Origin: Mizuhopecten yessoensis | Taxonomy: Eukaryota | Direction: 5' to 3' | DNA: 64,000 nucleotides | Assembly (NCBI RefSeq): GCF_002113885.1 | Contig: NW_018406103.1 | Coordinates: forward strand, 1,045,661 to 1,109,660 | Translations under genes and position numbers: made by a program | The notes under the pieces: generated by a model | The model's input: only the letters and a program-made list of their open reading frames with translations | Databases searched by the model: none | Told to the model about the DNA's origin: nothing | In this document: positions 3,701-56,843 of the stretch, piece after piece | Position numbering within the stretch: position 1 is the first letter of the stretch | Layout of the letters: every line of letters starts with the position of its first letter

Positions 3701-6700
3701 CTCACCATCCCATGTGTTGACCACAGTGCGGACACTTGGTTATCCACCAGCTGTAATTAGGGAACCACGTGTCATCACTGTATTTCTGAAAGATAACAAT
3801 ATAACAATGACCATCAAATATAGTTCTGTTGTTGTATGGAAATCAGCATAGTTTTGACCCTTTCACCCCTAAAGTCACATTTACACCTTACCAAATCAAA
3901 GAATGGTTAAGTCCAGTTCAGATATGTAGGGGTGAATGAGTTAAATAATCAAGATCCGGAAATTTTTTTTAATGAAAAGACTGCCATGTCTACGACTATT
4001 ATATACATGTACTTTGGATATTCATTTAATTGTTTGTCATATTGCCTCATGTAGTGACACTTTTAGTGAACCTTGGCTGTGCTAAATTATTTACCCCTAC
4101 AGACACATTTGAACTCTTCCAATTCAAAGATTGGAATAGTTCATTATTAAATTTCAGGGGTGAATGAGATAATTGCTGGTGGTTTGAATTCAGAGGTTCT
4201 TGGTCACCAAATCATCAAATATGCTGAAGTTATTCAGACCAGTATTCATTTTTCATTATTTTTTTTAGGTCTTTAAACCTTTCACCCCTATATAACTTTA
4301 GTCGACTATACCATGCATTGATCTGGTTGAGTCCATTTTGGTCTACAGTGGTGAAAGGGTTAAATTTGGTTTTGATACCCGCCTATAAAGTAGAGACGGT
4401 ACACATATATAGTTGTCTTTTTTGTTGGTCTATCAATTTGTTTGCATACGGTGGACAAGTTATATAAACACTGGATGGAGTTCTTATTGTGATTTATATG
4501 TCCACAATTTGTTCAAATCCCTACAGTTGTTCTTGGGAAGAAATTGAAAATGTATGACTTACAGATTAAGATCGCAATAGTTATACCCTACATCCAGTGT
4601 CCCATATGTTGGGCAAGACCAGGATATTTCAGTGCATTTGATTGAGATCAAATTATTCAGGTCTGAGGTGAAAACTAAGGTTGGTCATGGTACCTGAAAG
4701 AATTTTTTTTGTGTCGTGTACACAGATATATATAGTAGAGGACTTGTTAGTTAAGACTTACTTGTAAATCTTCTAAAACATCTGCTTTTCTTGTTGTTAT
4801 AACTTCAAAAGAATTATCTGAAAAATAAGTGAAAAGTATACATATGTACTGAGCAGAAGAGGTCATTCGTTTAAGTAAAGCACAGGTTCTTGTGCTGAAA
4901 ACATGCTGAACAAGCACTGGTTCATGTGCTAAAAACATGCTGAACAAGCACTGGTTCATGTGCTGAAAAATGCTGAACAAGCACTGGTTCATGTGCTGAA
5001 CAAAAAGTGAACAAGCACTGGTTCATGTGCTTAGACTATATAAAGTACATACTGAACAAGCACTGGTTCATGTGCTGAAAACATGCTGAAAAAGCACTGG
5101 TTCATGTGTTGAAAACATGCTGAACAAGTACTAGTTCATGTGCTTATATACTATATATAGTACATACTGAATGACACTGGTTCATGTGCTGAAAACATGC
5201 TGAACAAGCACTGGTTCATGTTCTGAAAACATGCTGAACAAGTACTAGTTCATGTGCTTATATACTATATATAGTACATACTGAACGACACTGGTTCATG
5301 TGCTAAATACAAACTGAACAAACACTGATTCATGTCCTGAACATTTCCTGAACAAACACTGGAACATATGCTTAACACATATTAAACAAGCACTGGTTCA
5401 TGTCCTGAATACATACTGAATGTTTAACTGGTTCATGTCCTGAATACATACTGAATGTATCACTGGTTCATGTCCTGAATACATACTGAATGGAGCACTG
5501 GTTCATGTCCTGAATACATACTGAATATAGCTTTGGTTCATGTCCTGAACATTTACTGAACATACACTGGTTCATGTTCTAAAAGCATACTGAACAAACA
5601 ATGGTTCATGTCCTGAATACATACTGAATGTAGCAGTTCATGTGCTTATATACTATATATAGTACATACTGAACAACACTGGTTCATGTGCTGAAAACAT
5701 GCTGAACAAGCACTGGTTCATGTGCTGAACAAAAAGTGAACAAGCACTGGTTCATGTGCTTAGACTATATAAAGTACATACTGAACAAGCACTGGTTCAT
5801 GTGCTGAAAACATGCTGAACAAGCACTGGTTCATGTGCTGAACAAAAAGTGAACAAGCACTGGTTCATGTGCTTAGACTATATAAAGTACATACTGAACA
5901 AGCACTGGTTCATGTGCTGAAAACATGCTGAACAAGCACTGGTTCATGTGCTGAAAACATGCTGAAAAAGCACTGGTTCATGTGTTGAAAACATGCTGAA
6001 CAAGTACTAGTTCTTGTGCTTATATACTATATATAGTACATACTGAACAACACTGGTTCATGTGCTGAAAACATGCTGAACAAGCACTGGTTCATGTGCT
6101 GAACAAAAAGTGAACAAGCACTGGTTCATGTGCTTAGACTATATAAAGTACATACTGAACAAGCACTGGTTCATGTGCTGAAAACATGCTGAACAAGCAC
6201 TGGTTCATGTGCTGAACAAAAAGTGAACAAGCACTGGTTCATGTGCTTAGACTATATAAAGTACATACTGAACAAGCACTGGTTCATGTGCTGAAAACAT
6301 GCTGAACAAGTACTAGTTAATGTGCTTATATACTATATATAGTACATACTGAACAACACTGGTTCATGTGCTGAAAACATGCTGAACAAGCACTGGTTCA
6401 TGTGCTGAAAACATGCTGAACAAGCACTGGTTCATGTTCTGAAAACATGCTGAACAAGTACTAGTTCATGTGCTTATTTACTATATATAGTACATACTGA
6501 ACGACACTGGTCCATGTGCTAAATACAAACTGAACAAACACTGATTCATGTCCTGAACATTTCCTGAACAAACACTGGAACATATGCTTAACACATATTA
6601 AACAAGCACTGGTTCATGTCCTGAATACATACTGAATATAGCTTTGGTTCATGTCCTGAACATTTACTGAACATACACTGGTTCATGTTCTAAAAGCATA

Positions 6701-9700
6701 CTGAACAAACACTGGTTTATGTACAAAAAAACATACTAAATAAAGCATTGGTTCATGTGGTGCAAACAAACTGATCATGACACTGGTTTATATACTGTTC
6801 TCATAATTTTTTAATAACTTTGAAGTAAGCACATTTGTGTTGGTCATAAGAAGTGACCATATCGTTTGAAGGTTTTATTACTTACCATGTGGATTTTTAA
6901 ATTGTTGAATAAGAATTTCTGGGACACCACCAAATGTAGAATTTCTTTGTCTGAGTGCCACTTTGCTTGGAATGTTGATCAAGTTTGCAGCTCGAACGAC
7001 TTCATGTCCACACTTCCGACATAGCAGGTAATCTGAAAACAGAAGTATTACTGTAAATATCCATAAAAATGTTCCTTACAAAATCATGCAACAACGAAGC
7101 TCCTGATAATGAGACAATTTTAATATATTGCATTGTCAATTTGGTTTGGTTTGTTTGCGGTTTACATCCTATATTTACAGATATGGTCTAGGTTTTGGTG
7201 GTGGAGGAAAGCCAGAGTACCCAGAGATAAACCACCGACCTGCGGCCAGTACCTGGCGACTGCCCCAGGTATGTAGGCCTCGAACCCACGACCAAGTGGT
7301 GATTGGCTAATGGTAGCAGAACTCGGCCACCATGGCCCTCATTGTTGTCAAAGGAGGCTGGGAATTAATATTAGTACTATGGTAGCTCTATATATTGTAT
7401 TCATGAGGCAAAGGGCTACAGTATCAGCCACCAATATCTTCACTTATAACACAGCACCCTGGCCTTGGCAGGTGTGGATGTGACTTTCTGTCTTTATAGA
7501 ACAACATACACTGGATTGCTAAACAGCCTTGGAAAATAGTAACAATTACTGCTTCCTACTAGTGTTGGTTTGTTTGTGTTTTACATCCTATTAACAGCTA
7601 TGGTCATTTAAGGATGTGTCAGGTTTTGATGGTAGAGGAAAGTCGGACTTCCCGGAGAAAACCAACGGCCAGTACCTGGCGACTGCCAAACGTAGGTCTT
7701 GAACCCGCGACCCAGTGGTGGAGGGCTAGTGGTAGCAGATGTCAGATGCCTTAACCACTTGGCCTCCGTGGCTGCTCACTAGTGTTGGATCATTAACATG
7801 ATGATACCATACCTATCACGATACATATGGTAACAGAAGATGCAAGAAAAAAAGAAATGTTGCAATTTTTTAATGGCAAATTATTACAACTGGAAAAAGA
7901 CTCGGTCCAAAATGGGCATGACTTTGAAGTTTCACACAATTCATGCCTTTCGACGTGCATGCCGAGCTGGAGCGGTCAATAGCCATGTTGGAACCGATAT
8001 GAGTAGACTAAATTCAGACACGACAAAATTCTGAAAATATTATAAGTGTATTGTAACTTCCCAAAAAAATATTGTGTTGGTATACTATATTGAAAATATT
8101 GTTATATATCATCGGTCATCAGGTCTGAGAGACAGTCTACAGTGGCGGATCCAGTGGAGTTTTTTGGGCTTCAGGAACCCACCCCCACCCCACCTGGAAA
8201 TTTGGAAACCCCCCTTGATAGGTCTCTGGATCCGACAATGGTCTACATAGTTTTGATTCCTCCAGAAAAAGAGGGAGGGGCACTTATGGGGAATGCTTAT
8301 TACAGTGAATACGGTCACAACATAAACAACGACCTGTGTTACATTGGCAGGGAAAATCCTCGAATTAGAGAGCAGTGGGCCATATTTAGCAATTTTTAGT
8401 CAATATTAAATTAAGAGTTAATCTAGTTTTGAGGGGTCAATGGCCCCATGACCCCCTCCAGGACTATCCCTGCATTGGCATAGCTGTCAAAGCTCCCTCA
8501 TTAGGAGACTGACTCCCTCATTTTGACCAAAATTTACCAATCTCCCTCGAAACTTCCTCATTAAAGTCCAACTCACACAAACTCAAAACCTACATTCTTT
8601 GGTCAAATGATCTCCTACTTACTGCAGGGTGTGTGTAATGATCATAACAGATGTGTCTGAATAAAGTTAATGCTTTTTGGAGTTATTTTGATGCATAAAA
8701 AGGGAAAGATAACTTGAAACACTTTCCCTCTCATTGGAGGCTTCAGAGGTTGACACTTATGCATCGGTGCCAAGAATAGGGCCCCGAAAATTACAAAAAT
8801 TACTCTGATTTGCTCTAAGGAGCATTATTGTTACCCTGGAAACACCCAAGATGACTTCTTTCTGGGAAGTAAGAGGAAACTAGAGTTTGGTAGTTAAAAG
8901 CCTCTCATTTGAAATTTCCAGTAGGAAATTGAAACTAACCGCAAGGGACCAGTCTCTGGACCAAACCAAAAAGCATCATAAAGGTTCAACAAGCCCCCCT
9001 GAAAGATGCTAGTTATATAGTTTCCCTTAACAGGTCCAGTACACTCTGCCAATTGAGCTATATAGCTTTAAAGACCTATATAGCTATATACACCTATAAA
9101 TTATAGCTGTATTGAGCTATATTTTCTCATATTTCAATTTTCATTAAATTAAAGCAAAGTCGCATAAAACAATATGGTTTTTGGTAATGGTGACTACAAA
9201 AAGCATACAGTTAGATGTTTATTTTCATTTTTCATAAATGTAAAATTTCTGATTTTTTCACATCATTATTTTATAAAAAGAATACTTATATTTAATGTCT
9301 TTTGTTATCAACCTTATTATACAATCTTCTTTTAAAAGCGACTTTGTTTTGTTTTCCTTAAAAATGAAAAATGAGTTTTTAATAGGACTTACTTTGGGTG
9401 TGAACTTAAGGGTGACTTTAGCCTCTTACAGGGGTTTGTAGAACCTTAAGGACATTCTAATATGACTGCCACACCAAACCGTTTATCAAATACAATAATG
9501 CGTTCCGTTAGCATTAAAAAATCCAGTGTCACATAATAATCCTCCTTCAATATTTTTCAAACATAATAAAGGTTACATGCACACTAAATTTCAGAAAAAA
9601 TATTCAATAACTGATGAAAAAACTCACTATTCATATGTTCATTTTCCAAGCTGAATATAAGTCACAATTCAGGAAAAAATCCATTTAAACTTGTAAATAT

Positions 9701-10798: not shown

Positions 10799-11593
10799 TT
10801 TGTTGAATGCATTGTGGGATTTGCTTACATTCTCGGAGTTTGACAGTTGTCACGTGGGCAACCGCGTTTTAGGGCGATATAAACAATGGCTCTTCTGTTT
10901 GCTATTTGTACTCCCTCGACAACTTATGTTTACTTGCATATTTCACGTTTTATTTTTGGAAATAGAAACGTTCTATTACCACGAAAGAGTAAAATAATGA
11001 CCAATTGTAATGTTTAGTAAATAATAAATACAATTATTGAACCAAATAATATAGAAAACAACATATTATCTGTTAAATAAATGGTGGAAATATGTAAGTC
11101 ATACTCTCTATAAACATTGTGATGCAACTTTTTTGATTGACAGATTCACCTCGGCGTCAACACCGAATATTTTTACCAAATTTACGTGTTTTAGCTACAC
11201 TTTCTAATCGGCGTTAACAAATTTTGATATATGGGAGTATACTTAAGTGAGTTGTATACATCAATATATTAAAAAGTATTCTGTTTGTATGAATTTCATA
11301 AATTGTCAAATATATCTTCGACCGTGACCTTGGTGTTAAACTCCTTCGGCAAATGAAAACACGGAGGTGTGTCTCTACGAGCCAATGAATGCAATGATAG
11401 TAATCACGAGGTTTTGTTGATACCGGAAAATTAACTCCGCCCACCCTAGCACCATAACAAACCGGCGCAATATACCGGCATATGTTTACATCGACCAGCT
11501 GATTTTTGTGACACTAATGCAGGACAATTACTGAATATTTTGATGTGAAACTTTGTGAATATTACAATTAGGTTTTCTGGATGTGATATACTC
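10799..11593. promoter_or_regulatory. Probable bidirectional promoter between the CULT gene and ZNF704-like gene
   Basis: Divergent ATGs ~800 bp apart. GTCACGTG E-box at 10849-10856, CCAAT ~11382, GC box CTCCGCCC ~11435, and several RCCGG motifs at 11421-11480. Confidence 0.6.
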
Positions 11594-14500
11594 ATGATGT
11601 TTGGGAATCGGAGACTTGCAAAGCGCTCGATTATAGGGACAAAAATATGTGCCATTTGGCAAGATGGCCGATATTACCCTGGTACCATTCAGAATCACCC
11701 GGCCGAAGGGGATTTATTTAGGGAGCAAAAATACACAGTTCGATTTGATGACGGTTACCAGAGGGATGTTAATGTGAGCGATATCATGGGACCTGGATTT
11801 AACAATGTATCGTCTTTAACACTGAAGCACGGACAGAAAGTCTATCTCACGTTAAACGGTCGAGAAGTACAGGGCTCTGTTGCCGAACATAACCGCTCAC
11901 AGGACGAGGTCATTGTAATTGTTCCCACAGTGAGCGGTGACGGAATTGAGCTAATCCGGAAAATAGATGATCTACGGCTGATGGAAAGTAGGAAATCGGC
12001 GAGACTCGTTGACCAGGCGACTGATTATTCTAAACTTGCCGATTTAAATGTACAAGGAGATAAAAAGAGGGCCGTATCTCACGTCATTGATGTGCCGTCA
12101 AAATCACAGTAAGTTACTATTTATAAAACTTTTCTAAAATTTATAATTTTAAATAGCCCAGTTGGATATTCCAATTTTCTGATTGAACAGTTTCATTCAA
12201 TTATCACGTGTATTACGTAGCTGTTATATATATATATCTTACCTATGCAGTTGAAGCTATTGATTGTTTTTTACCTGCAAATTTTCTACCTGTGTTGCAT
12301 ATATACACCTGACATTTCCAGGTAAAAATCAATGGTATATAAGTTACGGTGTATGGTGAAACCTACTGGCCGGTTAGTTACATCGGCTATATAAATAGAT
12401 ACCGGCCGGCGCTTAAATAGGACCCCGACCTTCCCTAGCGATTGACAGTTTAAGATATAAACACCGGCGTGTGTACAGCAGAAAAAAAAGCTTTAATTTA
12501 ACATTAGGGATAGAAAACCCTTTGAGCAGATTTTACATTTTACGAATTTCGGGATCTAACTTTACTTATATTGGGAATTGAAGTGAAATAGTCATATACT
12601 TGTCAATTCAACTGGCACTACAATGTATCTTGGTTGCCGAAAGTGTCTTTTTTGTCAAACAAACCATCATTCTGAAAACAACGGAAAAAATAACTCGAGG
12701 AAAAGGAAAAAGAAAGTTATTCGACACATCCGAACGTTGTACAGTGTAACTCGGCTTACTAGACGGTAATTATCTATTCAAATTGTTATTACAATGTCAG
12801 GATTCAAGCTTTGTATTTCTATATATGGTACCACGGAATGTGTTATCTAAGTCTGTGATGGTTAAACAAATCCCGTGTTATATCTGTTGTGTTATTGTTC
12901 TGTATCTTTATTCAGCTATTTGATGAACATGTTTGGACTTGTCATGTCATCAATTAACTGGTATACATGTATATATATATATATAAACACAATTCATTAG
13001 TTAGACAGATCTTCACACTTGCATATGTATATATGTATATATATTAGTTAGTTTAACTATGTAACATGCTGGACCGGATTGACATTCAACCTAATGAACT
13101 ATTAATATTGTATCAGCTTGATTAAAGCCGTTAAATATGATTTTCGAGTCCCTCCCCTTCTCCATCCCTCCTACTCTCGAGGTTATTTGAGATTAATGGC
13201 CGGTATTTGTCAATGGCGGTCTGGACCAGTATATACTGTGGATCTATTCAAGGCAATGAGAGAAGAGGGTATACTAACCGTCTTCACACTCCAATTCCCT
13301 CCCCCGAACTTAGTACCTGACCCGATTTGAAAATGTATCTCTAGATACTACCGGTACAGGCCGACCCCAGACTCATCATATATCACCTAATCCGGCAGGA
13401 GAGAAATGCCCCCCACCCCCGATCCCCCTACCTACACACACCGCCACCACTGATCTAAATACCACGCTGTGACCAAGACTTGACCAATGCAGTAAGATAA
13501 TATACACATGTACCTATCTGACCTTAGGGATTAGCCCTCCCTCTCAGGAGAAGTGTCCCCCGACCCACCCATATGTATTTAGACAAAGCCTTTGGGTAAA
13601 TAGCATGCTCCGTTATCTCCCCCAGGCGGTATCGTCGACCAAGTAGCGACGATGAAGACAGAGACGGTACACAGACAGAGGAAAATGACGTAGAGATGAT
13701 GGATGAGACGATAGCGGCGATGGTTCTAACGAGTCTGTCCTGTAGTCCGCAGTCTCCCAAGTTCCAGTCGTCACAGCTAACAGGTGCTTGTTGCGTCAGC
13801 TTACTATATATAGCACGTTTACTACGCACAATGGTATATTCAAAATAATACTTCGTCATATGTTTCGCTGTCCTATATTCGAAATATCATGTCCGTATAA
13901 AGTGACTTTCACCCGTGATGTGGTCATTCTATACATTGGGTTTTTATTCTTTGTTCCTAAGAAAAAAAGAAGAAAAAAAGAAAAAATACTATTATAATGG
14001 TAACTTTTGTAAGGGGATATTCAGAGTATAGTGAAAGAAAAAAAAGTCTTGAAAAAAACAAGATAAATATATTGTATATGCAAATTGTACCCTTCGAATT
14101 AGCAAACCTATATATTTTTCACAAGTTTGAAAATCTGGTTCCTTTCAAGGTTGTAGGTTGTTCGGACATTTCATCTTATTTGTCCTTGTTACAAGACAAA
14201 GTTTTCATACATTAAATAACACATACTGTAAATATTCACCAGATCTGACCAATAAGAGCCCCGCCCCCTTGTCCAGTAGCGTGGCGAGCAGTGGTTTCCA
14301 TTCGGAAAGGAGTGACCCCTCCCCGCCCCTCTCCGGCAATCTCAGTGAGAGCGCCCCGGCAGCGTCCGGGAGCTGGTTCTTCGGATCCTACCCAAAAGAT
14401 GAAGGTCTTGTGCTCGAGGAAAATGACGACGAAGATGACGATGTGGAAAATCTGGAACCAAAACGAAAGAGGATCGAAAGTCACGGATATGAGGTAGGAT

Positions 14501-17500
14501 TATCTTTTCTTCCGCATCTGTCCCGTTTTTTTTGTGAAACTGTTTATTGTGACGAAAAGGACAGGGGTGTGTGAAATTCCACTAGGTCAGGACTAGTAGA
14601 TTTATGTCAGCGCTCAAATTATCAATATTTAATATGAAAGTCTAAGCAAGGCTGTAAAGTAGCCAAAATCTACATGTGGACTTCGATATTCTAAATATGA
14701 AATCACAAACCCCGGAAGTTAATACATAGAATCATTTAGACATACATGCACTTTTTAAGTATTTTGTATAATTTGTTTAGCGAGAGAGAAATATATTGTG
14801 TATTTTCATATACATCATATGGTTCTGAAAATCTGTAAAAGCTTTATATATTTGGACCTAAACTAAGGTGTTTAGACCGAAACTTGATCTAAACCCCTCC
14901 GAACATTTACAATTACTCTAAACACATTAGTTTAGGTACATATGCATATGGCTGTAACAAATTACCAGGTCCCTGCGATATACATTTCGCTGTGTCATCA
15001 TATTACTGTACGGAAGCGAAGTTGTGTATTTAGCTATCGCTGTGTGTATTATGCACGGTAAGCAATATTGTAAGACCCTGTAACTTTGTATACATCCTCG
15101 GAAGCGGGATAGATAACTATAAGCCGTCATTATCATGAGGTACGTAAACACGTGCTTGCAATGTACATTTCTTAATTGCTGTCCCTGTCTCGGGTTATTC
15201 CGCTACTGTACAATGCCCCAACTCCGGTTAAATTAAGAGTGACCTCTTTATATATTATAAAGACAGATTGCACGCGTTTGTCAGTAACAACAGCAAAACA
15301 AAAACGTTTACCTTCGAATCAAAACATATATTAACTTTGAATGCAAATGTTAACGATCAGTTAAATTAAGATTAATGTAACCTAAAGTTAAGATAAGTAG
15401 AGGTTATAGGTTAAGGCTTCTTGAGGTTAATACGAGTAACTATAACCGAAGTAAGTCGATTTCAGGTAATACCGATATTACGTAAAATATGCAATCCGAA
15501 ATTTAGAATTTCGGACAAATATGACTTCCACTATCGGAATTTCGGACAAAATGCGTCTTAAGACAGCTGGACTTTTGATAAAATGGAGCCTACCAAACAA
15601 GTAAACTGAGTTAAAAGCCACAAATAGCAACCGTACTTAATATAGTGCTGACGTATATTTCTGTTTCTCGCTTTTATCTAAATGGAAATGATTGTAGAAC
15701 CATATATAGAAACTGCCTGTGGCTATTGTATTTGATGATTGAGATCCAAAGATACAACATACAATGAACTGTAGACTTTGAACCCTATATATATATGGCA
15801 TAAACAGATCGATGACCCTTGACCTAACATATGTGACAATAAGACTTATCATTTGTTACTCGTACAGCAGCTAATAAACGTCAATTTAAGGCTTAACGTA
15901 TAAAATTGTTGTATGGAGTTCGCGCGACCAGGTAAAGTATAATGTACAGGTGTATGCGTACTAATGTATCTTTTTACTGGGTCAGTCTTGCGGGGATAAA
16001 TACACAGTTTTGGGTGCTCGTGACCTACTTCCATCAGCTGATCGCTAACTGATGTAGCTATTTATAGCGTAGGTCATGCTGACGTTATGTTGTCTGTATA
16101 CTAAGCTATGCCTCTGATATAAACGTAGTCGTTACATACACAAAAAGTTACGAACACACATGCAGACATCAATCATTTATCCATTGATGTATTATATATT
16201 CAGTATGAAAAGGTACAATCTACGTAAGCGGAGGATTTTCTTATGCTACTGTAGCAACAATAAGCCGATCGCGATGACGTAGGCAAATTGACCTAAACCA
16301 AGTTCATTGCCCATAAAGATCAATCATTGAGACCACGTGATCGCTTGTCAGAGAGCACGTCTATTTATAGCGCTAAGGCTGGAGAATGTGTATTAGCTAC
16401 CGATTGTTTACGCTGTTCCGTGAATTGAGCGCCCTCCCTCAGTGATGTGTTATTCAGTGCAGTTTTGTGTTCACAACATTTTTGCCGTTGTTTACCATAG
16501 TGGGGGAAAATGCCAAGCATGAGGGCAATGCAGTGAGGTTTTATATTATGTGTTAACAGCCAGAACATTATCCTGATGTAAACACAAAAGTACAAACCTT
16601 CCAGTTTATGGGAAAACAGCATTTGACATGCTGTTATATTGTGTCATGTGCCGAGGGCAAGGTATAGATGGCAGCTTATAATTTCAAGCTTCCATTTTTG
16701 TTTAATAATAAATAATGATATACAACATTTATATAGCGCCCTATATCATTTGTAAAATTACTTTAAAGCGCTTTACAACATATGGATAACAGTAATAGTT
16801 ATAATTGTGAAACAAACTTTGGTTTGGTTTGGTTTGTTTGTATTTTACGTAAGGACGTGCCAGGTTTTGGTGGTGGAGGAAAGCCGGTGTTCCCGGAGAA
16901 AAAAAACCCACCGACCTACAGCCAGTACCAGGCGACTGCCCCACGTAGGCCTCGAACCTGCGACCCAGTGGTGTAGGGCTGGTGGTAGCAGAATGTCAGA
17001 TGTCTTTTTAGTTTTAAAACCACTTGGCGACCTCGGGCCCTACCACTTTGGATTACTTATCGTACGAAATCTCGTTTTATGAAGGTTCCTTGAGCAGAGT
17101 GAAGGAGACATTCATTGTTTGTCTTTTCCATACTTCTGTCCGTCTGCTCCCCCGACATATATTTGTTAGGCTTTGCGTATAGCTCTCTTATGAGAGTGCG
17201 ACATTCTTTAATTTTCCCATGTAGATATATCTTGCGGGTTTTTACAGCATTATATCAAATACACTATGGCCTATATTTTTTTCGCATCACTGACGTTTGA
17301 GAGGTCTGAAAACTGAATGTTCAATATTCATCAAACGTTTATATGTATGTACATACATCTTGAGGCGTGAACGGATAACTGCAAAACATCAACTGTTACC
17401 TATATAGTTTCCGCATCACTGAATTTGATATAATTTGCATTTTGCTCCGATGTCAGATTTATCAAAAGTCATAACGTGAAGACTTCATTAGAATACTATA

Positions 17501-23500: not shown

Positions 23501-26220
23501 GACTGGTCAAACTTCGTTCTCGTCCTGAACACTTCGGATTGTTTAGCTGGGAGGATTCGGACGTGTCACAATGATATTGCTGATGTCAATTGTACTAATG
23601 TGTTCATGTAATAAATATAAACTGACCGTAATGGCCTGAATGGTCACTGACCACGCGGTCAGCATCGTGGTTCGACCCCCTCATCTGTGGTCATTATACT
23701 GGTAATAAAGCCGGCAAGGCATGGTAGCCCGAACAACATTAGTGAGGACGTCATCCGGGTAATTTAGCTCACTGCGCCGAGGGCTTGGAACTAGTGTCGT
23801 ATTATTATATAGTAATTGATGGTAACTAGTTTTAAACCCTTCAGTTAAACATTAACCTGCCTAAAACATTATTTATTTTTCAAGGTGCGCTTAATTTTAA
23901 CTATAAATATAGAACATTATAAGATATGAGTTGGTATTATGCTTTCTATGGAAGTTCATGATAATTATGCATTTTATAATAGGAAAATAGAAAACGGACA
24001 CATAACAAACCGGACACCGTCATTATACAATCTTCAGCACGCGCACATAATGGGAATCACGTGATTAGCGCTTAAGCAATGCATCTTCCACACTCTTGAT
24101 TGTGCTAGTGTTTGCCGATGAGTGATTTCCTTAAGTTTATATATAGTTTCTAATAAATATTCGGTATCATTATTATAATAATAATGTTTGTCCTTTAGCA
24201 AAACACACTGTTATGTAAGCAAGGCGTGCATACGATCTCGATCTTAAACCCGTTGTTATAAGTTCCAAGAAAATTATATGAAAAAATTGGTGTGTACATA
24301 GAAGGAAACCTTGCCGGACCTATTATTTTGGTAAAAATAAAATCAGATTACCCAGAAGCAGTCCACTGGTAGCTTAGCTGGAAATGAATTTTATCAATTT
24401 TGTGTTTAATAAAGAGCAATTTTATTTTTGTAGGGTCACAAGAAAACGGTGTTCAAATGTACGTGGAAGAAATGCAACAAAATTCACAACACAGTGTCCA
24501 GTATCGAGGCCCACGTACGCACGGCACATCTTGGGTATGTATCAATTAAAGGGACCCGGATGGAACTACTGTACGGAATGAAAGAGATAAAATATTGTTA
24601 CTCAAAGAATAAGTAGTAAAACATTAAAAAACTTGGTCTCAAATGTTTATCACTCACGGGACGCAAGATTGTATTATTTTTTTTAAACTTAAACCGGGAT
24701 TCGAGCCTGAACCAATCACATATAACGTCGTTAAAAGTGACGTCATACGTGATTGGCTAAGCAAAAAAGAATGTCTAAGATTTTTTCAGGATCTTGGGGC
24801 ATGGACTTCAAAATAATATAGAATGTACCAGTACTACTGTACATACAAAAGACCACAGAGAAATGGGACAGCCATCCTTGACAATCTATTTACCCAAATG
24901 GTAAAACAAATGGGGATTTTTGGGAACAAGATCGTATTATCATGTTTACCAGTGCTGTTACGTGACAAACGTCAATGGAATCAACAGTATCTGATGGGCT
25001 CTTTTTCTGTTTTCAGACTTTCAGAAAGCGACAGCAACTTTCTTGATCACGAGGAAGAATTTTACTACACCGAGATCGAGGTCACGATGGATCACGTGAC
25101 TGAGAAATTCTCTGATATGTGTACGTCATCACCGCCGGAACCAACCGGATTTGATTTCGGCAGACCTATTCCAGATCACGACTACCAGAAAAAGGTCAGT
25201 CTAGATTGTCGTGATTTAACTTTCACGTGTTATACAGATTTGTTTTAGAACAATATTAATTATATTTGAAAATTCATTGACTTTTCATTTTTGTCTAGAG
25301 GAGAAAGATCATATTATACACGGTTTTAAAATTCTAGTGTTGTTATTTATTTGGGTATTTCGAAAATAAGATCTGAAAATAGCATGATTGGTAAAGTCAA
25401 AAGATCTTCATATTCAATTAGACTTAAAAAGTACCGCTTGAAGTTGTTATACGAGATTGTATGACGTCATCATTTCAATTTTTTATGGGACACCAATTTA
25501 CACGATTTTGAATTCTTCATTCTTTTATATTTAAGGAACACAGACAAAATGTTGGCAACATGTTCGCCTCGTCAGTGCCTTCTGGAGGATTCCAACCGCT
25601 GACGTCATCCGGATCTCTTCCCATAACAATGCCACAGATCAAAAGATCGTTGTCATGGCAAAATAACAATACCTCATCCTCGCCTGGATTGTCGGTAAGC
25701 GATTCTATTGACCTTAGTTTGACCTCTAATTACTTCATTTACCTTTATTGGCCGTAGGTTGGAAGACACAGTAGTCTGTTTTGGAATACACATATATATA
25801 TATATATACTGGTAAATAAACTCAAAACTATGTCGCGGTACAGCTGACACACAAACATACAATGATGACGCAGTGCACATATATTTATTTGTATATGCTG
25901 ACACATGCGCAAAATAGGATGACGTAGTACACATATAGCTCTATAATTATTCAATACAGTTCATTTAAGTACATGTATATGAATTATTTTTTCTGTCGTG
26001 TCCTTTCCAGATGTCACCTTCTGTCCGTTCGTCCAAACCATCTCCACAGGAACGGCTGCAACAGCATCAGGCTCAGTCTCCGAAATCTCACCTTTTCTCC
26101 TCTCATAAGAAGCCTCGAAGTGAAGTCCGGAAGTGCCGAAAGGTTTATGGGATGGAAAACAGGGACATGTGGTGCACTCAGTGTAAATGGAAGAAAGCCT
26201 GCTCCCGATTTTCGGACTGA
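11594..26220 (+). CDS. ZNF704: ZNF395/ZNF704/SLC2A4RG (Glut4EF/HDBP) family transcription factor, 523 aa; exons 11594-12108, 13626-13783, 14243-14493, 24434-24534, 25017-25194, 25536-25694, 26011-26220
   Basis: Seven GT-AG exons in consistent phase (1572 nt). Motifs: N-terminal DUF4772-like region ([17 protein letters not shown]), CR1 [18 protein letters not shown]2H2 finger [30 protein letters not shown]2 EEEFYYTEI, and C-terminal C-clamp [25 protein letters not shown]. The symbol denotes the family; the invertebrate gene is co-orthologous to the vertebrate paralogues. Confidence 0.93.
16817..17042 (-). mobile_element. SINE, third copy of the V-domain-like family
   Basis: Aligns by eye with 7138-7340. 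Confidence 0.75.
20700..20940 (+). mobile_element. MetaSINE-like element
   Basis: ataccaaagtccttaaaaatagtag...tgcttaacgatcagcatttaagg...agtataatgtaaccgg resembles the Meta central domain, from memory of the consensus. Confidence 0.5.
21525..21625 (+). mobile_element. tRNA-derived SINE / tRNA pseudogene
   Basis: Cloverleaf-like gaccagatagctcagttggtagagcg...ccgggttcgaacccc...tctggcc with a poorly paired anticodon stem, followed by the family tail ctgttaca. Confidence 0.7.
21668..21770. repeat. 36-bp tandem repeat x3
   Basis: agttacaataaacggaaacatcggggaattatcatt repeated. Confidence 0.85.
22570..23022 (+). mobile_element. Dispersed non-autonomous repeat; second, longer copy at 32846-33420
   Basis: Both copies begin tata.agaggatat.taatggtgtctt..gtaa.aacaaatatatttcacgagtgtggctaat and end atttcactggcaaa..tgtaataaa. 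Confidence 0.8.
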
Positions 26221-33938: not shown

Positions 33939-36900
33939 ATGGCCGGCCGTAACAGTTCTATTTTGATCCTAATCAGCCTTTATCTTCACTGTAAGTATTT
34001 GAACATACTTTTATGTCTGTTTCCTATACTCTTCTATGCTTTGATTTCGTTTTGTTTTATCCCTAACCATGTACGTATTAACCCATTGTTTACTTATTTA
34101 TGGTTCATCCGGTTATTAATGACTAGAGAGACGTACGTCATACACACCACGTGATATATTGTATACATACACGTTTACCTGTACACGTGGATTATACACG
34201 CATGACTGAATCATTAACGATCATTAACCAATTTCCGGACCAAAAACGTAAACAATGGCGATATGGTCGGGGGATAAAACAGTTCTGTATTTAAAAATGG
34301 TTGGCGGATGGCGATATACAGGGGATGGNTATAATTATATAAAGATAAATATTCTGCGTTGCAATTAAAACGTCATAAGACTTAGAGAGACCCGTTTTGC
34401 ATATAAAGCTACGTACATTGTATCATCTAGCAGAGTTACTTCCCTGTGTACGCCGAGAAAATGACATGCATTAAGTGGACTTGAATGCCTCTCGAAACTT
34501 AGGTTTTAGTGACCACATCTTCATTAATCGTTTGCCATTTCTGTTTAACTTCTTTCAAATATTGACTTGAGCAAGGCAACATATCAATAATAGGGCGTCC
34601 TTGATTGTTACGTCATTTGTTTGTGAGAGTAACGTCATCAATTTTTGAGAAAACGACGTAATTTTCTCACACAAACCAATGACGTAACGATCAATACCTG
34701 CTCACAAGAGAAGATAACTCTCAAATACGCAAAAACGGAAAAGTCGATTCAAGTCGACAGCTCGGTAGAAACCGATTTACGCCGGTATCTGACCGGCTAG
34801 TATTCCAATCAAGCGCTCTATTCAACATAGCATCAATATATGTATATACATGTACCATTTAAATGTTGTAGAGTTCGTGATGAAGGATTTTAAATTTGAG
34901 CCGGCGAAATGTAGATTGCTAAAGTTTATTTACGTTATGAAATGTTCGACATCTTTTCAAAAGCATTTGCTCCAATTCAGATAGACGCTGCACGAATTGT
35001 TACAGGACTACCCATATACACAAAAATTCGAACATATATTTAATGAAATTGGCTGGGTCCCACTAAGAACTAGACGGAAGCACAGACAAGTATCAATTAA
35101 AAACGGTACTGCTCCAAATTATTTGTGTGACACCATACCAGATAGCATTGGGGATATTTGCCGTTATAACCGAAACCATTCCCAACATTTAAGACAACCA
35201 AACTTGAGGCTTGAACCTATGCGCAATTCTGTTTTCCCATCAACTACAAAAATCTGGAATTACCTAGATATATCTATAAGGAATTCGGCTACTCTCAGTT
35301 CATTTAAAACAAATATAAAGTTAAAAGGGGAAATACACAATAAATGCTTTCTGGCATTGGGTTCTCGTAAACTAAATATACTTCATTGCCGTTTGAGAAA
35401 CCGTGCCAGCTCTCTTAACTATGACCTATTAAGAGCAAATTTAAATAATACAACTGAATGGGCATGCGGTAATCCATGTGAAGACTCTTATCACTTCCTC
35501 TGTGTATATCACCTATTCCGTCTTTGCGTATTGCAGAGTTATCTTCTCTTGGGAGCAGGTATTGATTGTTACGTCATTGGTTTGTGTGAGAAAATTACGT
35601 CGTTTTCTCAAAAATTGATGACGTTATTCTCACAAACAAGTGACGTAGCAATCAATACCTGCTCCAAAGAGAAGATAACTCAGCAATACGCAAAGACGGA
35701 ATACACCCAACAGCGAAATCTAACTTTAGACTTGCTCCTATATGGCGATCTTAAATTCAGCAAAGATGAAAATACCTCAATTGCAAAAGCTGTTCAAAAT
35801 TACATAAGCAAATGCAGCCGGTTGTTTTCTTCTACTCTGCCTGTTTTACAATCCTTTACTTCGTTTCTCTCTCCGTCTTTTCTTCTCTCTATTTTCTATT
35901 TATTGCGTAAATTGCCTTATCAAGTTATTGTTTTTATACATGTATTTGGAGAAAAGGATTGTGAAAAATTGTAAATCTTTATTTCCAATAAAATATTTTT
36001 TGGCCAGCTCCAATCGAGCCGAACCCCCGCCTTTCCGGCCGGCCGCAGGATGCTCGGGGTTTGCAATCGAGCAGGCCCTTCGTGATTAGTTATGGCCCTG
36101 CTGAAGTGCAATATTTTAAAGAAAAGGGAGAAGTTATTTTTATCGTATAAGTGCCTGTTATAATAACGTTTAATTGCAAGAAAACATTAACCATTTAAGG
36201 ATTTTTGTCACATATATGTATACATAGTGATCGCCAAAAAGATCTTTATTGAAGCAGCCATTTTGTTTTCTGATTTCATAGCTTCTTCTTTCGTACTGGG
36301 TAGCGTTTCCAATACAGAGTTATCGGCCTTTGTCACTGGGATATGGAACGACGACACCAATGGCGCCTCCTTCTCTGACATCACATACAACCTCCAATCA
36401 CATACGTCGAGCTCATCATCCGCGGACCTCGCCAATAACAGGTGAGGAACACGACTTTTGATTGGTCAGTTATATCGTCCCATGTTGTCATATGAAAACA
36501 CCAGTCTTGTGATGAATGACGCAGGCAGGGTCGCTTATTTTGTTTCGCAGATTTATTTTGTTGATTTAAACATATGTTATTGCCATAATACAGCATGGTT
36601 GGGCACAAGTTATACAACTGATATAAAGGCATTTCCATAAAAAAATACACTAAAAATACAACAAAATTACAAGATGGCGCACCAAAAAAATACTTTATGA
36701 AAAATGTAGCTAAATAAAAGTTGTTTTACATGCGTTCACTCATTCTCACACCACACACACACGCACACCCACTCACACGCGTTTATATGAATATAAACAA
36801 GAGATAGAGAGTGGTCTTGGGGGGGGGGGGGGGGGGATTATTAATGTTCATGACGTTCTGCTGTTTAATTGTTCATCACTTCATTTGAGATCGCGGCTCG

Positions 36901-39900
36901 GAGTCAGTGGAGCCTTAATATAAGTCGTACATATAAGATGAAGGACTTTGTATGGCTTCGACCTCACACAAATCCATACATACTGAAAACCTCCCCTTGA
37001 ACTTTCAAACCACGTACAGTTTACTCTCAGAAACTACAGAACGCATCTGCTTGAACAAAACTTAACATCAGATGGAAATGTGTTGGCGTAACCAATACGT
37101 CTTAAGGGGAAATATAAAGTTTGTTCAAATTAGTTGTTTATGGTTGCTAAAACCACTGTGCAAAACCTTGTCAAAATAGGCTGAATTTCAATTTCCATTG
37201 TCGGAATCGCAGATTGGTCATTTTGAACTGAAATGTATAAATATCACATTCTTTATAAAAGAGATGTCGACTGATTTCTTTCCTTTTGTTGAACATGCAG
37301 TATATTGTTGTGACAGCTGTCAGATGATATCAATCGGGAATATTGCGTATACACAAATCGTACTCCGTAAGTTATTGTTTGGTTTGAATTTGATTGAGAC
37401 AATGCTCATTGTCTAAGTTAGAATAACAAATTGGGTAGTCTTTATCATAGGGATTTTCTCCCTAAAACATGTAAAATTACGCTGAACACCTTACTTTAGA
37501 TCCAAATATAGCGGTAACAAAATATCAGGTCCCTGTGGTCTATCTAACACCTGTAGCCTGTTTGTCTATACATGCACGGGATTTAACAAGCAGAGGGTAT
37601 GTTTTAAACATTGTTAACATATTCTTCATCTCCTGGCGTCAAAGTTAATCTAAAATTATTGTTAACGGAGAAATGGTCTTTGAATAGATCGCTATACATA
37701 TGCATCTGGTAGTGTATCAGGCATGACGGTAAATACTCTCGTTCATGTGACCGAATGAACCCATATAATTTCATTGAGGTCACAATAATCTATGTTCATG
37801 CCGTACAATACCCATTTTAAATGTTAAATATACACTTTATTACTTTACAACAATGATGAATCATAAAACCCTCTTTTTGGCTCGGATGAAAGTGAGTGGG
37901 GGTCTTAATTTGGGAAGACTGATATAACTGGAAGTCATTTTTCCGCGCCCTCAGCCTCGTTTTAGATTCAATATTATATATGGCCGTCGCCTGCGATAAG
38001 AGTATTTCTGTCCTTTCTCAGATTTCTGTTGAAATTCCTTAGCATGAAAACTGCGATAATATCGTCTCGTGAATATAATATAAATTTAGATATTAAACAA
38101 ATACTAAAATGATGTTGTATGTGAATTCGTTGCAGATTGTTCCACTATGTTAATGAGAACCATCTCTTTACGAAACCTACGTACTCCGCTTTCATCGCCT
38201 TGCTTGACAACTTCGACAAAAACACAGCTCATTCGGAGCATACGTCATCGACGGAAACTGCCGAAATTGACCGATTCATTACGGAAGTGATGAAAACTTC
38301 GGTGATGTCGGAAACTTATAGATTTCTGCATGGCAAAGGTAACTGGAGAGTTGTATTGCATTCCGACAGAGCAATAAAACATTCATTAAGGTAAACTGTA
38401 CCAACAAGTCAGATCATATTATTACCATTGTTACCTTTCAAAAGACACATTCCATGAAAATCACATGTTACCATACATGTTGTTAGAAATTTGATTATTT
38501 GAAAAGATAAAACAAAAACAAAACAAAACCATAAACATTGCAAGGCTCGAACTCAGAATCTAAACATTACACATTACACCAATGTTGCCAGTTTCAAAAA
38601 GTGTGTCCAATTTAAGGACCAAAGATCATATTAGTAACGTATCAGTAGACGGTACTCTAACCTTGATAAACAAGATCGGCCAAATAATTAATGAATCTAA
38701 TAATTATAACTGGTATTGTCTCTTGATTGGCTAAGACGATCATTTCAACATTAAATGTAATTTGTAGAATACATACCCCCTAGACCTCTTAGTATTACAT
38801 AATAAATGAGTATCTAAAAAAAAAGAATTGTAAATATTCTAATTATTGACCCATAAAATTATGCTGCCGTGTAATACATCTAGGTGAAGTGGAATATATA
38901 CATACAGTAAAACCCCACTTCCTCGAACTCGATTTACTCGATTTCTCGTTTACTCGGTTACCCCTCATTCGTCGAACAGTTCGTTTGGTCCCGACCGAGT
39001 TCGTACATATTCTTTGTATATTCCTTGAATACCCCGTACGAGTTCGAGTTAGCGGGGTTTTATTGAATATGTATTGCAATTTAGTATTTAGCGGTTGTAA
39101 TTAACTTAAAGTTTGTCTTTACAATATGTTTGACCTATTTATTATAAGGCTACACCACATCAACGACCGCCTTCCGGGATACGTTAAAGAGCATATGGTT
39201 TACCCAGTATTCTCGATCCGGAACTTCCCACGGAAGTAACGGATTCGAGCACGTGTTCGTCGGAGAGACAACTAGCACAGATGTTTCCGGTTTCCATAAC
39301 TGGATTCAATTCTACCTCGAGGAGAAACTAGGGCACATCAATTATCTTGGCTACATCTACTCCAATCAGGTAACTTCGATTTCACGTATACCTACGAGCA
39401 GACAAATCGAGTTATGAAATGGACTCTATCTTTGTATTTGATATCCTTGTCTCAATTATGATCCTCTTAATTTATTTAAACTGCTTAAGGTAGAAAGTTG
39501 GTATGTCTTTTCGGTATAACATCTCGGAAGTTGAAAATAATGTTGATATTTCCGTTTGGTCTACAGCCTCGAAAGTTGAAAATAATGTTGATGTCTCTGT
39601 TTGTTAGAGAGTAACGGAAGTTTGGGAAAAACTTGTTTTGTCTGTTTGAACGTTGATATTTCCGTTTGATCCACAGTCCCGGAAGTTGATAATAATGTTG
39701 ATTTTCCCGTTTGTTCCACAGCCTCGGAAGTTTATGGTAATGTTGATTTTCCCGCCTGTTCCATAACTCGGGAATTCTATGGTAATGTTGATTTTTTTCG
39801 TTTGTTCCACAGCCCCGAAATGTGATGGTAATGGTATTTTTTCCGTTTGTTTCGCAGCCCCGGAAGTTGATTGTAATGTTGATTTTTTAATTTGTTCCAC

Positions 39901-51000: not shown

Positions 51001-51740
51001 CCATACCCCATATAAAGGTTAATATTGCACATACAATGATGTTTAAAGAATTTCTCTGCGTTATTTAGTTTCAGATATGCTCTCTACCGGATCCATCCAC
51101 GCAATCTGACCTTACCGTGACACCGGAAGTGCTGGAGCACGTGGCTGATAATTCCAGAGACATTCTACCCGCCAATTGCCATGTCGGATACGGATTAGAA
51201 ACTGACTTCATGTCAAAATTTGAAAAAGCAACAGATACCGGAAATTCATCTACGGACGATGATTTTTCTCCAAAATCGTCTTCAATGTCAACCTCAGTTA
51301 ACGACAGTGGGCATGAAACACTTGAATCGAGCCCAGAGGAACTCCAGGGCGATTTGTTTTCGTGGAGACAACCAAAAAATAATCTTAATTCCTCGTATCT
51401 TTCGTTCATACCAGCCTATCAGAATCCGGGGCGGTTGTCGCCAGAGTTACCCGATCTTGGACACGTGAGTCCATTTGAATTATCTCCCTTGTCAAACCAC
51501 GGCGCTTCACCCCCACCATCCTTGCTGACGTCAACACAAAATTTACTGCGTGTTTCGCCCGTTCCGATGACGTCACCATCCTATTCAGATTCATACAGTT
51601 CGTATTATTCGCCATATCAGTCGAGTCACGTGATGTATCCTGCACTTCATGACCTTGCCTATTCGTATCCGGTTAACTATTATCCGATGCAAGGAAACGA
51701 CCCAATGATGTCCCTTACACCAGAGTGGTTAGGAAATTGA
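45025..51740 (+). CDS. Divergent forkhead-box (Fox) transcription factor, ~450 aa; exons 45025-45103, 48600-49207, 51075-51740
   Basis: Forkhead domain KKPNYSYTELVYLAILRSP...LPITEIYKYIRSRFTFF...WKNAVRHSLSKTKCFTK...FLWCI in exon 2. Phase-0 splice to a Ser/Pro/Tyr-rich last exon. Exon 1 (MGKRKRCNE...AFT, phase 1) joins in frame but is less certain. Confidence 0.85.
45965..47010 (-). mobile_element. Degenerate non-LTR retrotransposon (reverse transcriptase plus C-terminal CCHC knuckle) in Fox intron 1
   Basis: KAFDFVNR, GLFQGEILSPLLF, LMYADD, FNYLG, RLSAHNLNIEKGR, CTVC...EFHFMLKC split over three frames; (TATTG)n tail at ~45990-46030. Confidence 0.88.
49335..49725 (-). mobile_element. Tandemly duplicated (period ~276 bp) element containing a 5S rRNA internal-promoter fragment (SINE3-like)
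   Basis: Minus strand ttgagcaacgttgagtgtggtcagtagttggatgggtgaccg resembles 5S rRNA GTTAAGCAACGTCGGGCCCGGTTAGTACTTGGATGGGTGACCG; copies at 49344 and 49620. Confidence 0.6.
50795..50975 (-). mobile_element. tRNA-derived V-domain-like SINE (different family)
   Basis: Minus strand ggtggcgcagtggttagcgcacttgcctttcaccaag...cgattccc...gtgggtttctctggtttcctcccaca. Confidence 0.7.
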
Positions 51741-56760: not shown

Positions 56761-56843
56761 AATAATAAGTTAACATTGATCAAAAGTCGATATCTTGCAA
56801 TTTGAAATGATCAAAAACCGGAAGTTGCCCCTACCGGATTTGT

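What the first reader, a model, noticed from the sequence alone, without database searches (positions are those of the whole stretch)
11630..11990. C-clamp transcription factor carries a 53BP1-like Tudor domain with an apparently intact methyl-lysine cage
Seen: exon 1 encodes [20 protein letters not shown]...[19 protein letters not shown]. From memory, the first Tudor of 53BP1 reads FVGLRVVAKWSSNGYFYSGKI...KYKLLFDDGYECDVLGKDI. Its cage residues W1495, Y1502, F1519, D1521 and Y1523 all have counterparts here (W at 11657, YY, F 11744, D 11750, Y 11756). A second beta-rich module follows ([20 protein letters not shown]...EVIVIV...DDLRL), consistent with a tandem Tudor. Inference: this domain of unknown function (DUF4772-like) may be a histone methyl-lysine reader fused to a CG-binding C-clamp, an architecture I do not recall in vertebrate ZNF395/704.
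Basis: partly seen in the sequence, partly recalled or inferred. Interest (0 to 1): 0.7.

Follow-up and report, generated by a model that had tools for sequence, protein, structure and literature searches.

The report
Hidden Tudor reader in ZNF395 family
The unexplained front end of this shellfish gene-control protein is predicted to fold as two Tudor barrels; the first keeps all five residues of a methyl-lysine pocket and likely reads a methylated histone, the short motif after the second may grip the nucleosome, and both features are missing from the mammalian relatives examined.

Summary
The stretch is exon 1 of an intact, spliced, seven-exon ZNF395/ZNF704/Glut4EF orthologue (489/522 identical to a scallop protein) ending in a C-clamp. 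Its DUF4772 is predicted to be a tandem Tudor. W22, Y28, F51, D53 and Y55 align with the 53BP1 cage. The complete cage also occurs in Nematostella, hemichordates, echinoderms and many lophotrochozoans, so it looks ancestral. It is labile, however: complete in 27 of 132 non-redundant homologues, with W22 and Y55 among the fastest sites. The barrels are predicted to pack unlike 53BP1's (rmsd about 9 A), so this is not a 53BP1-family domain. Vertebrates did not simply lack the module: sharks keep both barrels and the motif without the cage, and mammals keep barrel 2 only. Best reading: a nucleosome-engaging Kme1/2 reader on a Sin3-recruiting CCGG-binding factor. No binding is shown. No paper linking the family to Tudor turned up. 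This scan earlier noted CCGG clusters in another genome's C-clamp gene, but not the Tudor.

The parts
11594..12108 (+). Coding part of exon 1 (ATG ATG at 11594/11597): DUF4772 tandem Tudor plus tail; residue numbers here count from 11594
   Evidence: RNA contigs start at about 11433-11540
11609..11629 (+). Basic N-terminal motif RRLAKRS, kept as RRLGKRS in mammals; role unknown
   Evidence: R7, K10, R11, S12 conserved in 96-99% of non-redundant rows
11624..11797 (+). Tudor barrel 1 (residues about 11-68)
   Evidence: AlphaFold2 strands; rmsd about 2-2.5 A to single Tudor domains
11657..11659 (+). Cage W22 (= 53BP1 W1495)
11675..11677 (+). Cage Y28 (= 53BP1 Y1502)
11744..11758 (+). FDDGY: cage F51, D53, Y55 (= 53BP1 F1519, D1521, Y1523)
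11813..11989 (+). Tudor barrel 2 (residues about 74-132). No cage: L87 and V92 at the W and Y positions, read by eye from the internal repeat. This barrel survives in mammals.
11990..12007 (+). RKSARL, HMGN/Dsup-like candidate acidic-patch motif; low pLDDT in the monomer model
   Evidence: 89 of 96 rows match R[RK]SxRL; 107 of 111 long rows against 83 of 22200 shuffles
13626..13783 (+). Exon 2, with the AAMVL (AAxxL, Sin3-type) motif at 13714-13728
   Evidence: the motif in fly Glut4EF is described in PMC9890238 (passages)
14243..14493 (+). Exon 3 (low-complexity linker)
24434..24534 (+). Exon 4, single C2H2 zinc finger
25017..25194 (+). Exon 5 (conserved acidic EEEFYY block)
25536..25694 (+). 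Exon 6
26011..26220 (+). Exon 7 coding part; C-clamp at about 26128-26217, stop at 26218-26220
   Evidence: the family profile matches the SLC2A4RG C-clamp 7dta at E 1.8e-17

Best explanation
This gene encodes a ZNF395/ZNF704-family C-clamp transcription factor whose N-terminal DUF4772 is predicted to be a tandem Tudor that likely binds a mono- or di-methylated lysine in barrel 1 and, through the RKSARL motif that follows, likely also docks on the nucleosome surface. Shown here: the gene, its splicing, the five cage residues and the motif. Predicted: the two-barrel fold. Inferred mechanism: the C-clamp binds CCGG sites (known for the human proteins). The module then stabilises the factor on a neighbouring nucleosome, with R137 as arginine anchor and R133 as second arginine in the Dsup register, and the cage reads a Kme1/2 mark. 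One Asp plus four aromatics is the 53BP1 pattern, which favours me2 over the two-Asp BAHCC1 me1 pattern; H4K20me2 is the first candidate. The AAMVL helix likely recruits Sin3/HDAC. The cage is present in a cnidarian and in several bilaterian phyla, so it is inferred ancestral and repeatedly lost, an accessory rather than the core function. My odds by step: fold 0.97; Kme binding by this cage 0.55; H4K20me2 specifically 0.25; acidic-patch binding by RKSARL 0.4.
For: Fold: AlphaFold2 gives two barrels with pLDDT mostly above 80 over residues 11-130. Foldseek top hits are 53BP1 and SETDB1 Tudors (E 6e-6 to 1e-4). Each barrel matches single Tudors at 1.2-2.8 A, repeated for the Nematostella orthologue. 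Cage: complete in Nematostella P0167, Saccoglossus, Glandiceps, Patiria, Antedon, Lineus and Bugula-cluster rows, and in 8 of 9 rows of the scallop's own clade. W22 is replaced by G, R, S, C or Q in members that keep the domain, so it is not needed for the fold. Among 50 non-arthropod rows, an aromatic at 55 goes with W22 in 26 of 34 against 2 of 16 without it; column 55 is the most W-dependent of 100 columns, and D52, D53 and Y28 are in the top five, while non-cage identity barely differs (0.65 against 0.61). Selectivity rule: PMC13285377 section 6 and PMC12219854 section 8. Motif: conservation; RRSARLSA, RRSSRLTS and RRSARIAT bind the acidic patch (PMC12487698, PMC13347269). Sin3 and CCGG: PMC9890238, PMC5339479, PMC11601247.
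Against: The cage is complete in only 27 of 132 non-redundant rows and in 0 of 80 mostly arthropod rows. W22 changes state at least 12 times on a 52-row tree. W22 and Y55 rank 90 and 111 of 114 sites by rate even outside arthropods. The tree-aware test of joint loss leans the right way (about 4 pairs to 1) but is not significant (median p 0.22-0.38; underpowered). The tandem superposes on 53BP1 only at rmsd about 9.2-9.3 A over 101-102 residues in both models, so 53BP1's inter-barrel peptide groove is not predicted and the ligand sequence is open. Nematostella has the cage but no RKSARL; insects and sharks have the motif but no cage, so the two are not obligately coupled. The motif has K at the second position in most rows where HMGN, Dsup and Dot5 have R. 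PHF20L1 Tudors lose methyl selectivity on nucleosomes (PMC13285377 abstract).
Confidence: 0.5

Rival explanations
1. The cage is a decaying relic. The module works through its near-invariant non-cage surface (RRLAKRS, GPGF, TxNGRE, R128, RKSARL) as a methylation-independent binder of nucleosomes, DNA or a partner protein.
For: The most conserved positions lie outside the cage. W22 and Y55 are fast sites. Insects, ticks, amphioxus and sharks keep the module without the cage. Mammals keep barrel 2 and RRLGKRS: 108 of 109 non-chondrichthyan vertebrate rows have the GQKV signature. PHF20L1 is a precedent for DNA binding overriding the cage.
Against: The same five residues recur in a cnidarian, hemichordates, echinoderms and molluscs across long branches, and in non-arthropods they tend to be lost together. 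D53, G54 and F51 are among the five sites that speed up most in the mostly arthropod set.
Confidence: 0.3
2. The cage is functional, but its ligand is a methylated non-histone protein (lysine or arginine), such as a co-repressor subunit or another transcription factor.
For: 53BP1's cage also binds p53 K370/K372/K382me2 (PDB titles). The barrels match SMN and TDRD3 Tudors as well as lysine readers. The different tandem packing leaves the ligand open.
Against: The single-Asp W-Y-F-D-Y pattern is that of Kme1/2 histone readers, and sequence similarity is best to 53BP1, Crb2, SETDB1 and BAHCC1.
Confidence: 0.15
3. RKSARL is not a nucleosome motif but a nuclear-import signal or a basophilic kinase site, or it packs on barrel 2.
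For: It directly follows the last strand, and R128, L129 and S132 beside it are equally conserved. Short R-x-S motifs are common (recalled, not tested).
Against: It has low pLDDT in the monomer model, residues 135-144 under 50. It is lost in bony vertebrates that keep barrel 2. R133, S135, R137 and L138 are exactly the positions fixed in HMGN and Dsup.
Confidence: 0.35
4. The Tudor likeness is chance, or the exon does not belong to the C-clamp gene.
For: Single-sequence E-values against 53BP1 chains are weak (0.006-0.1), and Z-scores near 8 are common for small barrels.
Against: Two Tudor Pfam families pass their cut-offs. Two AlphaFold2 models give the same barrels. RNA joins the exons.
Confidence: 0.02

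Closest known systems
53BP1 / Crb2 tandem Tudor (H4K20me2 reader)
   Same: Two consecutive Tudor barrels, cage in the first, same five residues W-Y-F-D-Y; top sequence and Foldseek hits.
   Different: Predicted barrel packing differs (rmsd about 9 A); barrel 2 does not align by sequence; the host is a C-clamp transcription factor; cage lost in many lineages; no binding data.
BAHCC1/Winged eye tandem Tudor (H4K20me1 reader)
   Same: A cryptic tandem Tudor in a chromatin regulator; Pfam BAHCC1-like Tudor passes its cut-off; W, Y, F, D cage.
   Different: BAHCC1's cage is in the second barrel and has a second Asp (D2024) where this protein has Y55 (PMC12219854 section 8).
Human ZNF395 (HDBP2/PBF), ZNF704, SLC2A4RG and fly Glut4EF
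   Same: C2H2 finger, C-clamp, AAxxL motif; DUF4772 in primate ZNF395.
   Different: Mammalian ZNF395 rows have a decayed barrel 1, no cage and no RKSARL. No row named ZNF704 or SLC2A4RG was among the 120 of 133 hits listed for the skate N-terminus; their lack of the domain was not tested directly.
HMGN / Dsup / Dot5 nucleosome-binding motif
   Same: R-[RK]-S-x-R-L with both arginines of the Dsup register conserved.
   Different: K usually replaces the second R; the motif sits directly behind a folded tandem Tudor; binding untested.

Membership tests
ZNF395/ZNF704/SLC2A4RG (C-clamp factors) | C-terminal C-clamp with four cysteines | tested here: met
   Exon 7; profile match to 7dta at E 1.8e-17
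ZNF395/ZNF704/SLC2A4RG (C-clamp factors) | Single C2H2 finger and conserved AAxxL region | tested here: met
   Exons 4 and 2; AAxxL-like motif in 103 of 111 long rows
ZNF395/ZNF704/SLC2A4RG (C-clamp factors) | Binds CCGG DNA and Sin3/HDAC | not testable with these tools
   Known for the human and fly proteins
DUF4772 (PF15997) | HMM score above the curated cut-off | tested here: met
   98.7 bits against 27
Tudor (Royal family) fold | SH3-like antiparallel beta barrel, twice | tested here: met
   Predicted models only; structural matches
53BP1/Crb2 tandem Tudor | W-Y-F-D-Y cage in the first barrel | tested here: met
53BP1/Crb2 tandem Tudor | Pfam 53-BP1_Tudor above cut-off across both barrels | tested here: not met
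   19.9 bits against 22, covering only profile positions 3-51 of 122
53BP1/Crb2 tandem Tudor | 53BP1-like packing of the two barrels | tested here: inconclusive
   rmsd about 9.2-9.3 A in two predicted models; inter-domain confidence of the models was not available (pTM 0.65 for the window model)
53BP1/Crb2 tandem Tudor | Binds H4K20me2 | not testable with these tools
   Needs peptide or nucleosome binding assays
BAHCC1-type H4K20me1 reader | Two cage aspartates, cage in the second barrel | tested here: not met
   Y55 in place of the second Asp; cage in barrel 1
HMGN-like acidic-patch motif | R-R-S-x-R-L/I core with anchor arginine | tested here: inconclusive
   RKSARL: five of six HMGN positions match, K for the second R; RR variants occur in 7 of 96 rows
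HMGN-like acidic-patch motif | Acidic-patch-dependent nucleosome binding | not testable with these tools
   Needs a nucleosome binding assay

The most novel reading that the evidence does not exclude
The ancestral animal C-clamp repressor was a three-way chromatin reader: the C-clamp reads CCGG DNA, a 53BP1-type cage reads H4K20me1/2, and in bilaterians an HMGN-like motif anchors on the nucleosome acidic patch. Vertebrate ZNF395 dismantled this module stepwise (cage lost by sharks, motif lost in bony vertebrates, barrel 1 decayed in mammals), leaving an unrecognised Tudor barrel in primate ZNF395.
Probability: 0.25. Interest if true: 0.72.

Novelty: new variant of a known kind. Interest (0 to 1): 0.52.

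Why it matters
It gives DUF4772 a fold and a testable function. It also suggests that a small, disease-linked family of CG-binding transcription factors carried its own histone-mark and nucleosome reader, an unusual pairing for a sequence-specific factor. Scallop, hemichordate or Nematostella proteins are the right ones to assay, because the fly-like and mammalian proteins have lost the cage. The motif would add a widespread invertebrate family to the short list of HMGN-like acidic-patch binders. The retained second barrel in mammalian ZNF395 becomes a defined domain to mutate.

Tried and rejected
Complex prediction of own-genome H2A, a stand-in invertebrate-type H2B and residues 122-155: no verdict (score 0.01, mark 0.34; alignments not used, peptides outside the calibration), so it is not evidence either way. 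An H2B gene was not found in the own assembly by Pfam or pattern; the assembly may be incomplete. A homologue search with alignment A1 and 'longer' covered only 1349-3850 aa proteins and found nothing. ESM Atlas on P0002 residues 1-145: DUF4772 clusters first, then Agenet and Tudor clusters, all under 0.9, so leads only. The tree-aware joint-loss test was underpowered on the domain-only tree (3 starred pairs) and not significant on the full-length tree (10 pairs; cage columns not masked). The idea that RKSA is an internal H3K27-like mimic feeding the cage was set aside: K is replaced by R in 7 of 96 rows, and the motif persists where the cage is gone. The local Pfam copy does not detect the C-clamp. 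A by-sequence look-up of earlier findings returned nothing. The original 53BP1/Crb2 structure paper (PMC1804291) was not held. No non-animal homologue was identified, but most representative hits are unnamed and only 30 were looked up.

Full report
Gene and observation. The flagged stretch lies in an open frame at 11549-12112. Using the closest database protein (P0002, named zinc finger protein 704-like of the scallop Ylistrum balloti) as guide, seven coding exons join into a 522-residue frame without internal stop, with six GT..AG introns and 489 of 522 positions identical to P0002. All six joints are seen in RNA: five in all 4 runs laid, the exon 3-4 joint in 3 of 4. One contig runs from the Tudor exon to the C-clamp exon. 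Counting from the ATG at 11594, the cage is W22, Y28, F51, D53 and Y55. These align with the 53BP1 residues in HMMER alignments to PDB chains, and the 53BP1 cage list is as stated in PMC5974088 (passages).

Fold. Exon 1 is DUF4772 (E 4e-28) and also passes the cut-offs of the Crb2 and BAHCC1-like Tudor families. The 53BP1 Tudor family hits at E 7e-4, below cut-off and over barrel 1 only. AlphaFold2 on a 66-row alignment gives two beta barrels, residues about 11-68 and 74-132, with low confidence after 135. Foldseek ranks 53BP1 and SETDB1 Tudors first. Each barrel matches single Tudors (PHF1, SMN, TDRD3, PHF20, MTF2) at about 1.2-2.8 A with Z about 8, and also NusG KOW domains, so the fold alone shows no function. 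Over both barrels the fit to 53BP1 is poor, rmsd about 9.2-9.3 A across 101-102 residues, and the Nematostella model gives the same result. The barrels are therefore predicted to pack differently from 53BP1, though I could not read the inter-domain confidence. Barrel 2 has no cage (L87 and V92 at the W and Y positions, read by eye).

Cage across animals. Of 227 rows (plus the query), 210 cover barrel 1 and 132 remain at 80% non-redundancy; 27 of the 132 have the complete cage and 39 have W22. Complete cages occur in Nematostella ZNF704, Saccoglossus, Glandiceps, Patiria, Antedon, a Holothuria-cluster row, Lineus, a Bugula-cluster row and many molluscs (names). None of the 80 rows outside the non-arthropod group is complete (mostly arthropods where named, many unnamed, amphioxus included; P0186 and the skate row left out). 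In the 50-row non-arthropod group, 26 are complete. There an aromatic at 55 accompanies W22 in 26 of 34 rows against 2 of 16 without it, the strongest dependence among 100 columns, while identity outside the cage hardly differs. These rows are related, and the tree-aware test is not significant: 10 independent pairs, about 4 to 1 in the expected direction, median p 0.22-0.38 (52 of 55 candidate rows, three dropped as truncated; cage columns not masked). W22 changes at least 12 times on that tree. Site rates put W22 at rank 90 and Y55 at rank 111 of 114 even outside arthropods, F51 at 16 and D53 at 41; D53 and G54 speed up most in the other set. In the scallop's own clade 8 of 9 rows are complete. 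So the cage looks ancestral and still kept in this lineage, but dispensable in many others.

Which mark. Published comparisons tie one cage Asp with four aromatics (53BP1) to a preference for Kme2 and two Asp (BAHCC1 D2022 and D2024, cage in the second barrel) to Kme1 (PMC13285377 section 6; PMC12219854 section 8). This protein has the 53BP1 pattern. Which lysine it reads is not predictable from this, the more so as the tandem packing differs. The PHF20L1 paper (abstract) warns that Tudor methyl selectivity can vanish on nucleosomes.

The most conserved positions are outside the cage: RRLAKRS, GPGF, TxNGRE, R128 and RKSARL at 11990-12007. Of 96 rows covering the motif, 89 match R[RK]SxRL; among 111 long rows 107 carry it, against 83 of 22200 shuffles. 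It resembles HMGN RRSARLSA, Dsup RRSSRLTS and yeast Dot5 RRSARIAT, which bind the H2A-H2B acidic patch by an arginine anchor (PMC12487698 passages and section 8; PMC13347269 passages). R137 would be the anchor and R133 the second arginine in the Dsup register; most rows have K where those proteins have a second R. This is an inference from sequence. The motif is absent from Nematostella.

Vertebrates. Searching with the skate ZNF395 N-terminus gave 133 hits, 120 listed, those with names all ZNF395-type or unannotated. Sharks, skates and chimaera keep both barrels without W, Y and Y of the cage, and 10 of 11 keep the motif. None of the other 109 vertebrate rows has the motif, 108 of 109 keep the barrel-2 signature, and none of 119 has a W..YY cage pattern. 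Barrel 1 is still alignable in gar, bowfin and coelacanth and is eroded in mammals and teleosts. Macaque ZNF395 still scores as DUF4772 but hits no Tudor family at E 0.01.

Mechanism. Known for relatives: the C-clamp alone confers CCGG binding and ZNF395 recruits Sin3A/HDAC (PMC5339479 passages; PMC11601247 passages). Fly Glut4EF has an AAxxL repressive domain that was in a pool enriching Sin3A (PMC9890238 passages), and ZNF704 is a repressor (bioRxiv 2020.01.09.900548, listing and passages). I infer that the N-terminal module adds nucleosome contact: motif on the acidic patch, cage on a Kme1/2 tail, with H4K20 the first candidate. I give the methyl-reader reading about even odds; the main rival is a methylation-independent role of the conserved non-cage surface.

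Novelty. Searches of the held library: 'DUF4772' 0 papers; two of ZNF395/ZNF704/Tudor 23 papers, 20 listed, where those containing 'Tudor' look by title like expression or interactome studies and were not read; three of six family terms 7 papers, none containing 'Tudor'; 'ZNF395' with 'acidic patch' 0. The library lacks most subscription papers, and supplements were not searched. Automatic Pfam annotation already marks Tudor families on some invertebrate members, so the fold is latent in databases. PMC4999783 (passages) lists the family without describing an N-terminal domain in the passages seen. Verdict: a real, apparently undescribed variant of a known kind, interest 0.52; function unproven.

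Noticed in passing
window 12109-12765 (start of intron 1): Minor RNA form: a contig in run X2 (depth 27.9 against 185.7) continues past the exon-1 donor and splices from about 12765 (GT..AG) to exon 2; contigs in X6 cover 12080-12766 and stop there, and X1 covers 12080-12412. Read-through meets TAA at 12110, giving a Tudor-only 172-residue product or a decay target. An ATG at 12623 is open and in frame with exon 2, so an internally started form would lack the Tudors. The two readings were not told apart.
   Followed up: partly
window 11400-13400: CCGG cluster around exon 1 and intron 1: 13 sites against a shuffle mean of 4.0 (0 of 1000 shuffles reach it), none in the 2 kb upstream, with one CCGGCCGG at 12402. 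The interval was chosen after seeing the sites, and 48000-50000 is also enriched (10 sites, 15 of 1000). Fits possible self-regulation by the C-clamp.
   Followed up: partly
window 48581-49222 (+) and 51069-51740 (+): A Forkhead-domain frame (E 9e-22) and a downstream Ser/Pro-rich frame, probably one Fox gene.
   Followed up: partly
window 34985-35974 (-) and 46571-47203 (-): Frames that look by eye like fragments of non-LTR retrotransposon reverse transcriptase; not scanned.
   Followed up: no
window 4878-6788, 39652-41953, 54673-56761, 58782-59829: Long tandem arrays with periods of 34, 45, 20 and 20 bases.
   Followed up: no
window 16740-17000: A high-copy expressed repeat inside intron 3 draws many partly matching reads, probably a SINE-like element.
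   Followed up: no
window 12075-12095 (end of exon 1 coding): SHVIDVP motif conserved from molluscs to mammals (SRNIDVP) although the flanking sequence is not; function unknown.
   Followed up: no
P0031-P0033 against P0018 and P0021: Neogastropods (Babylonia, Nucella) have two paralogues; one set keeps the complete cage, the other has lost parts of it, a natural pair for a binding test.
   Followed up: partly
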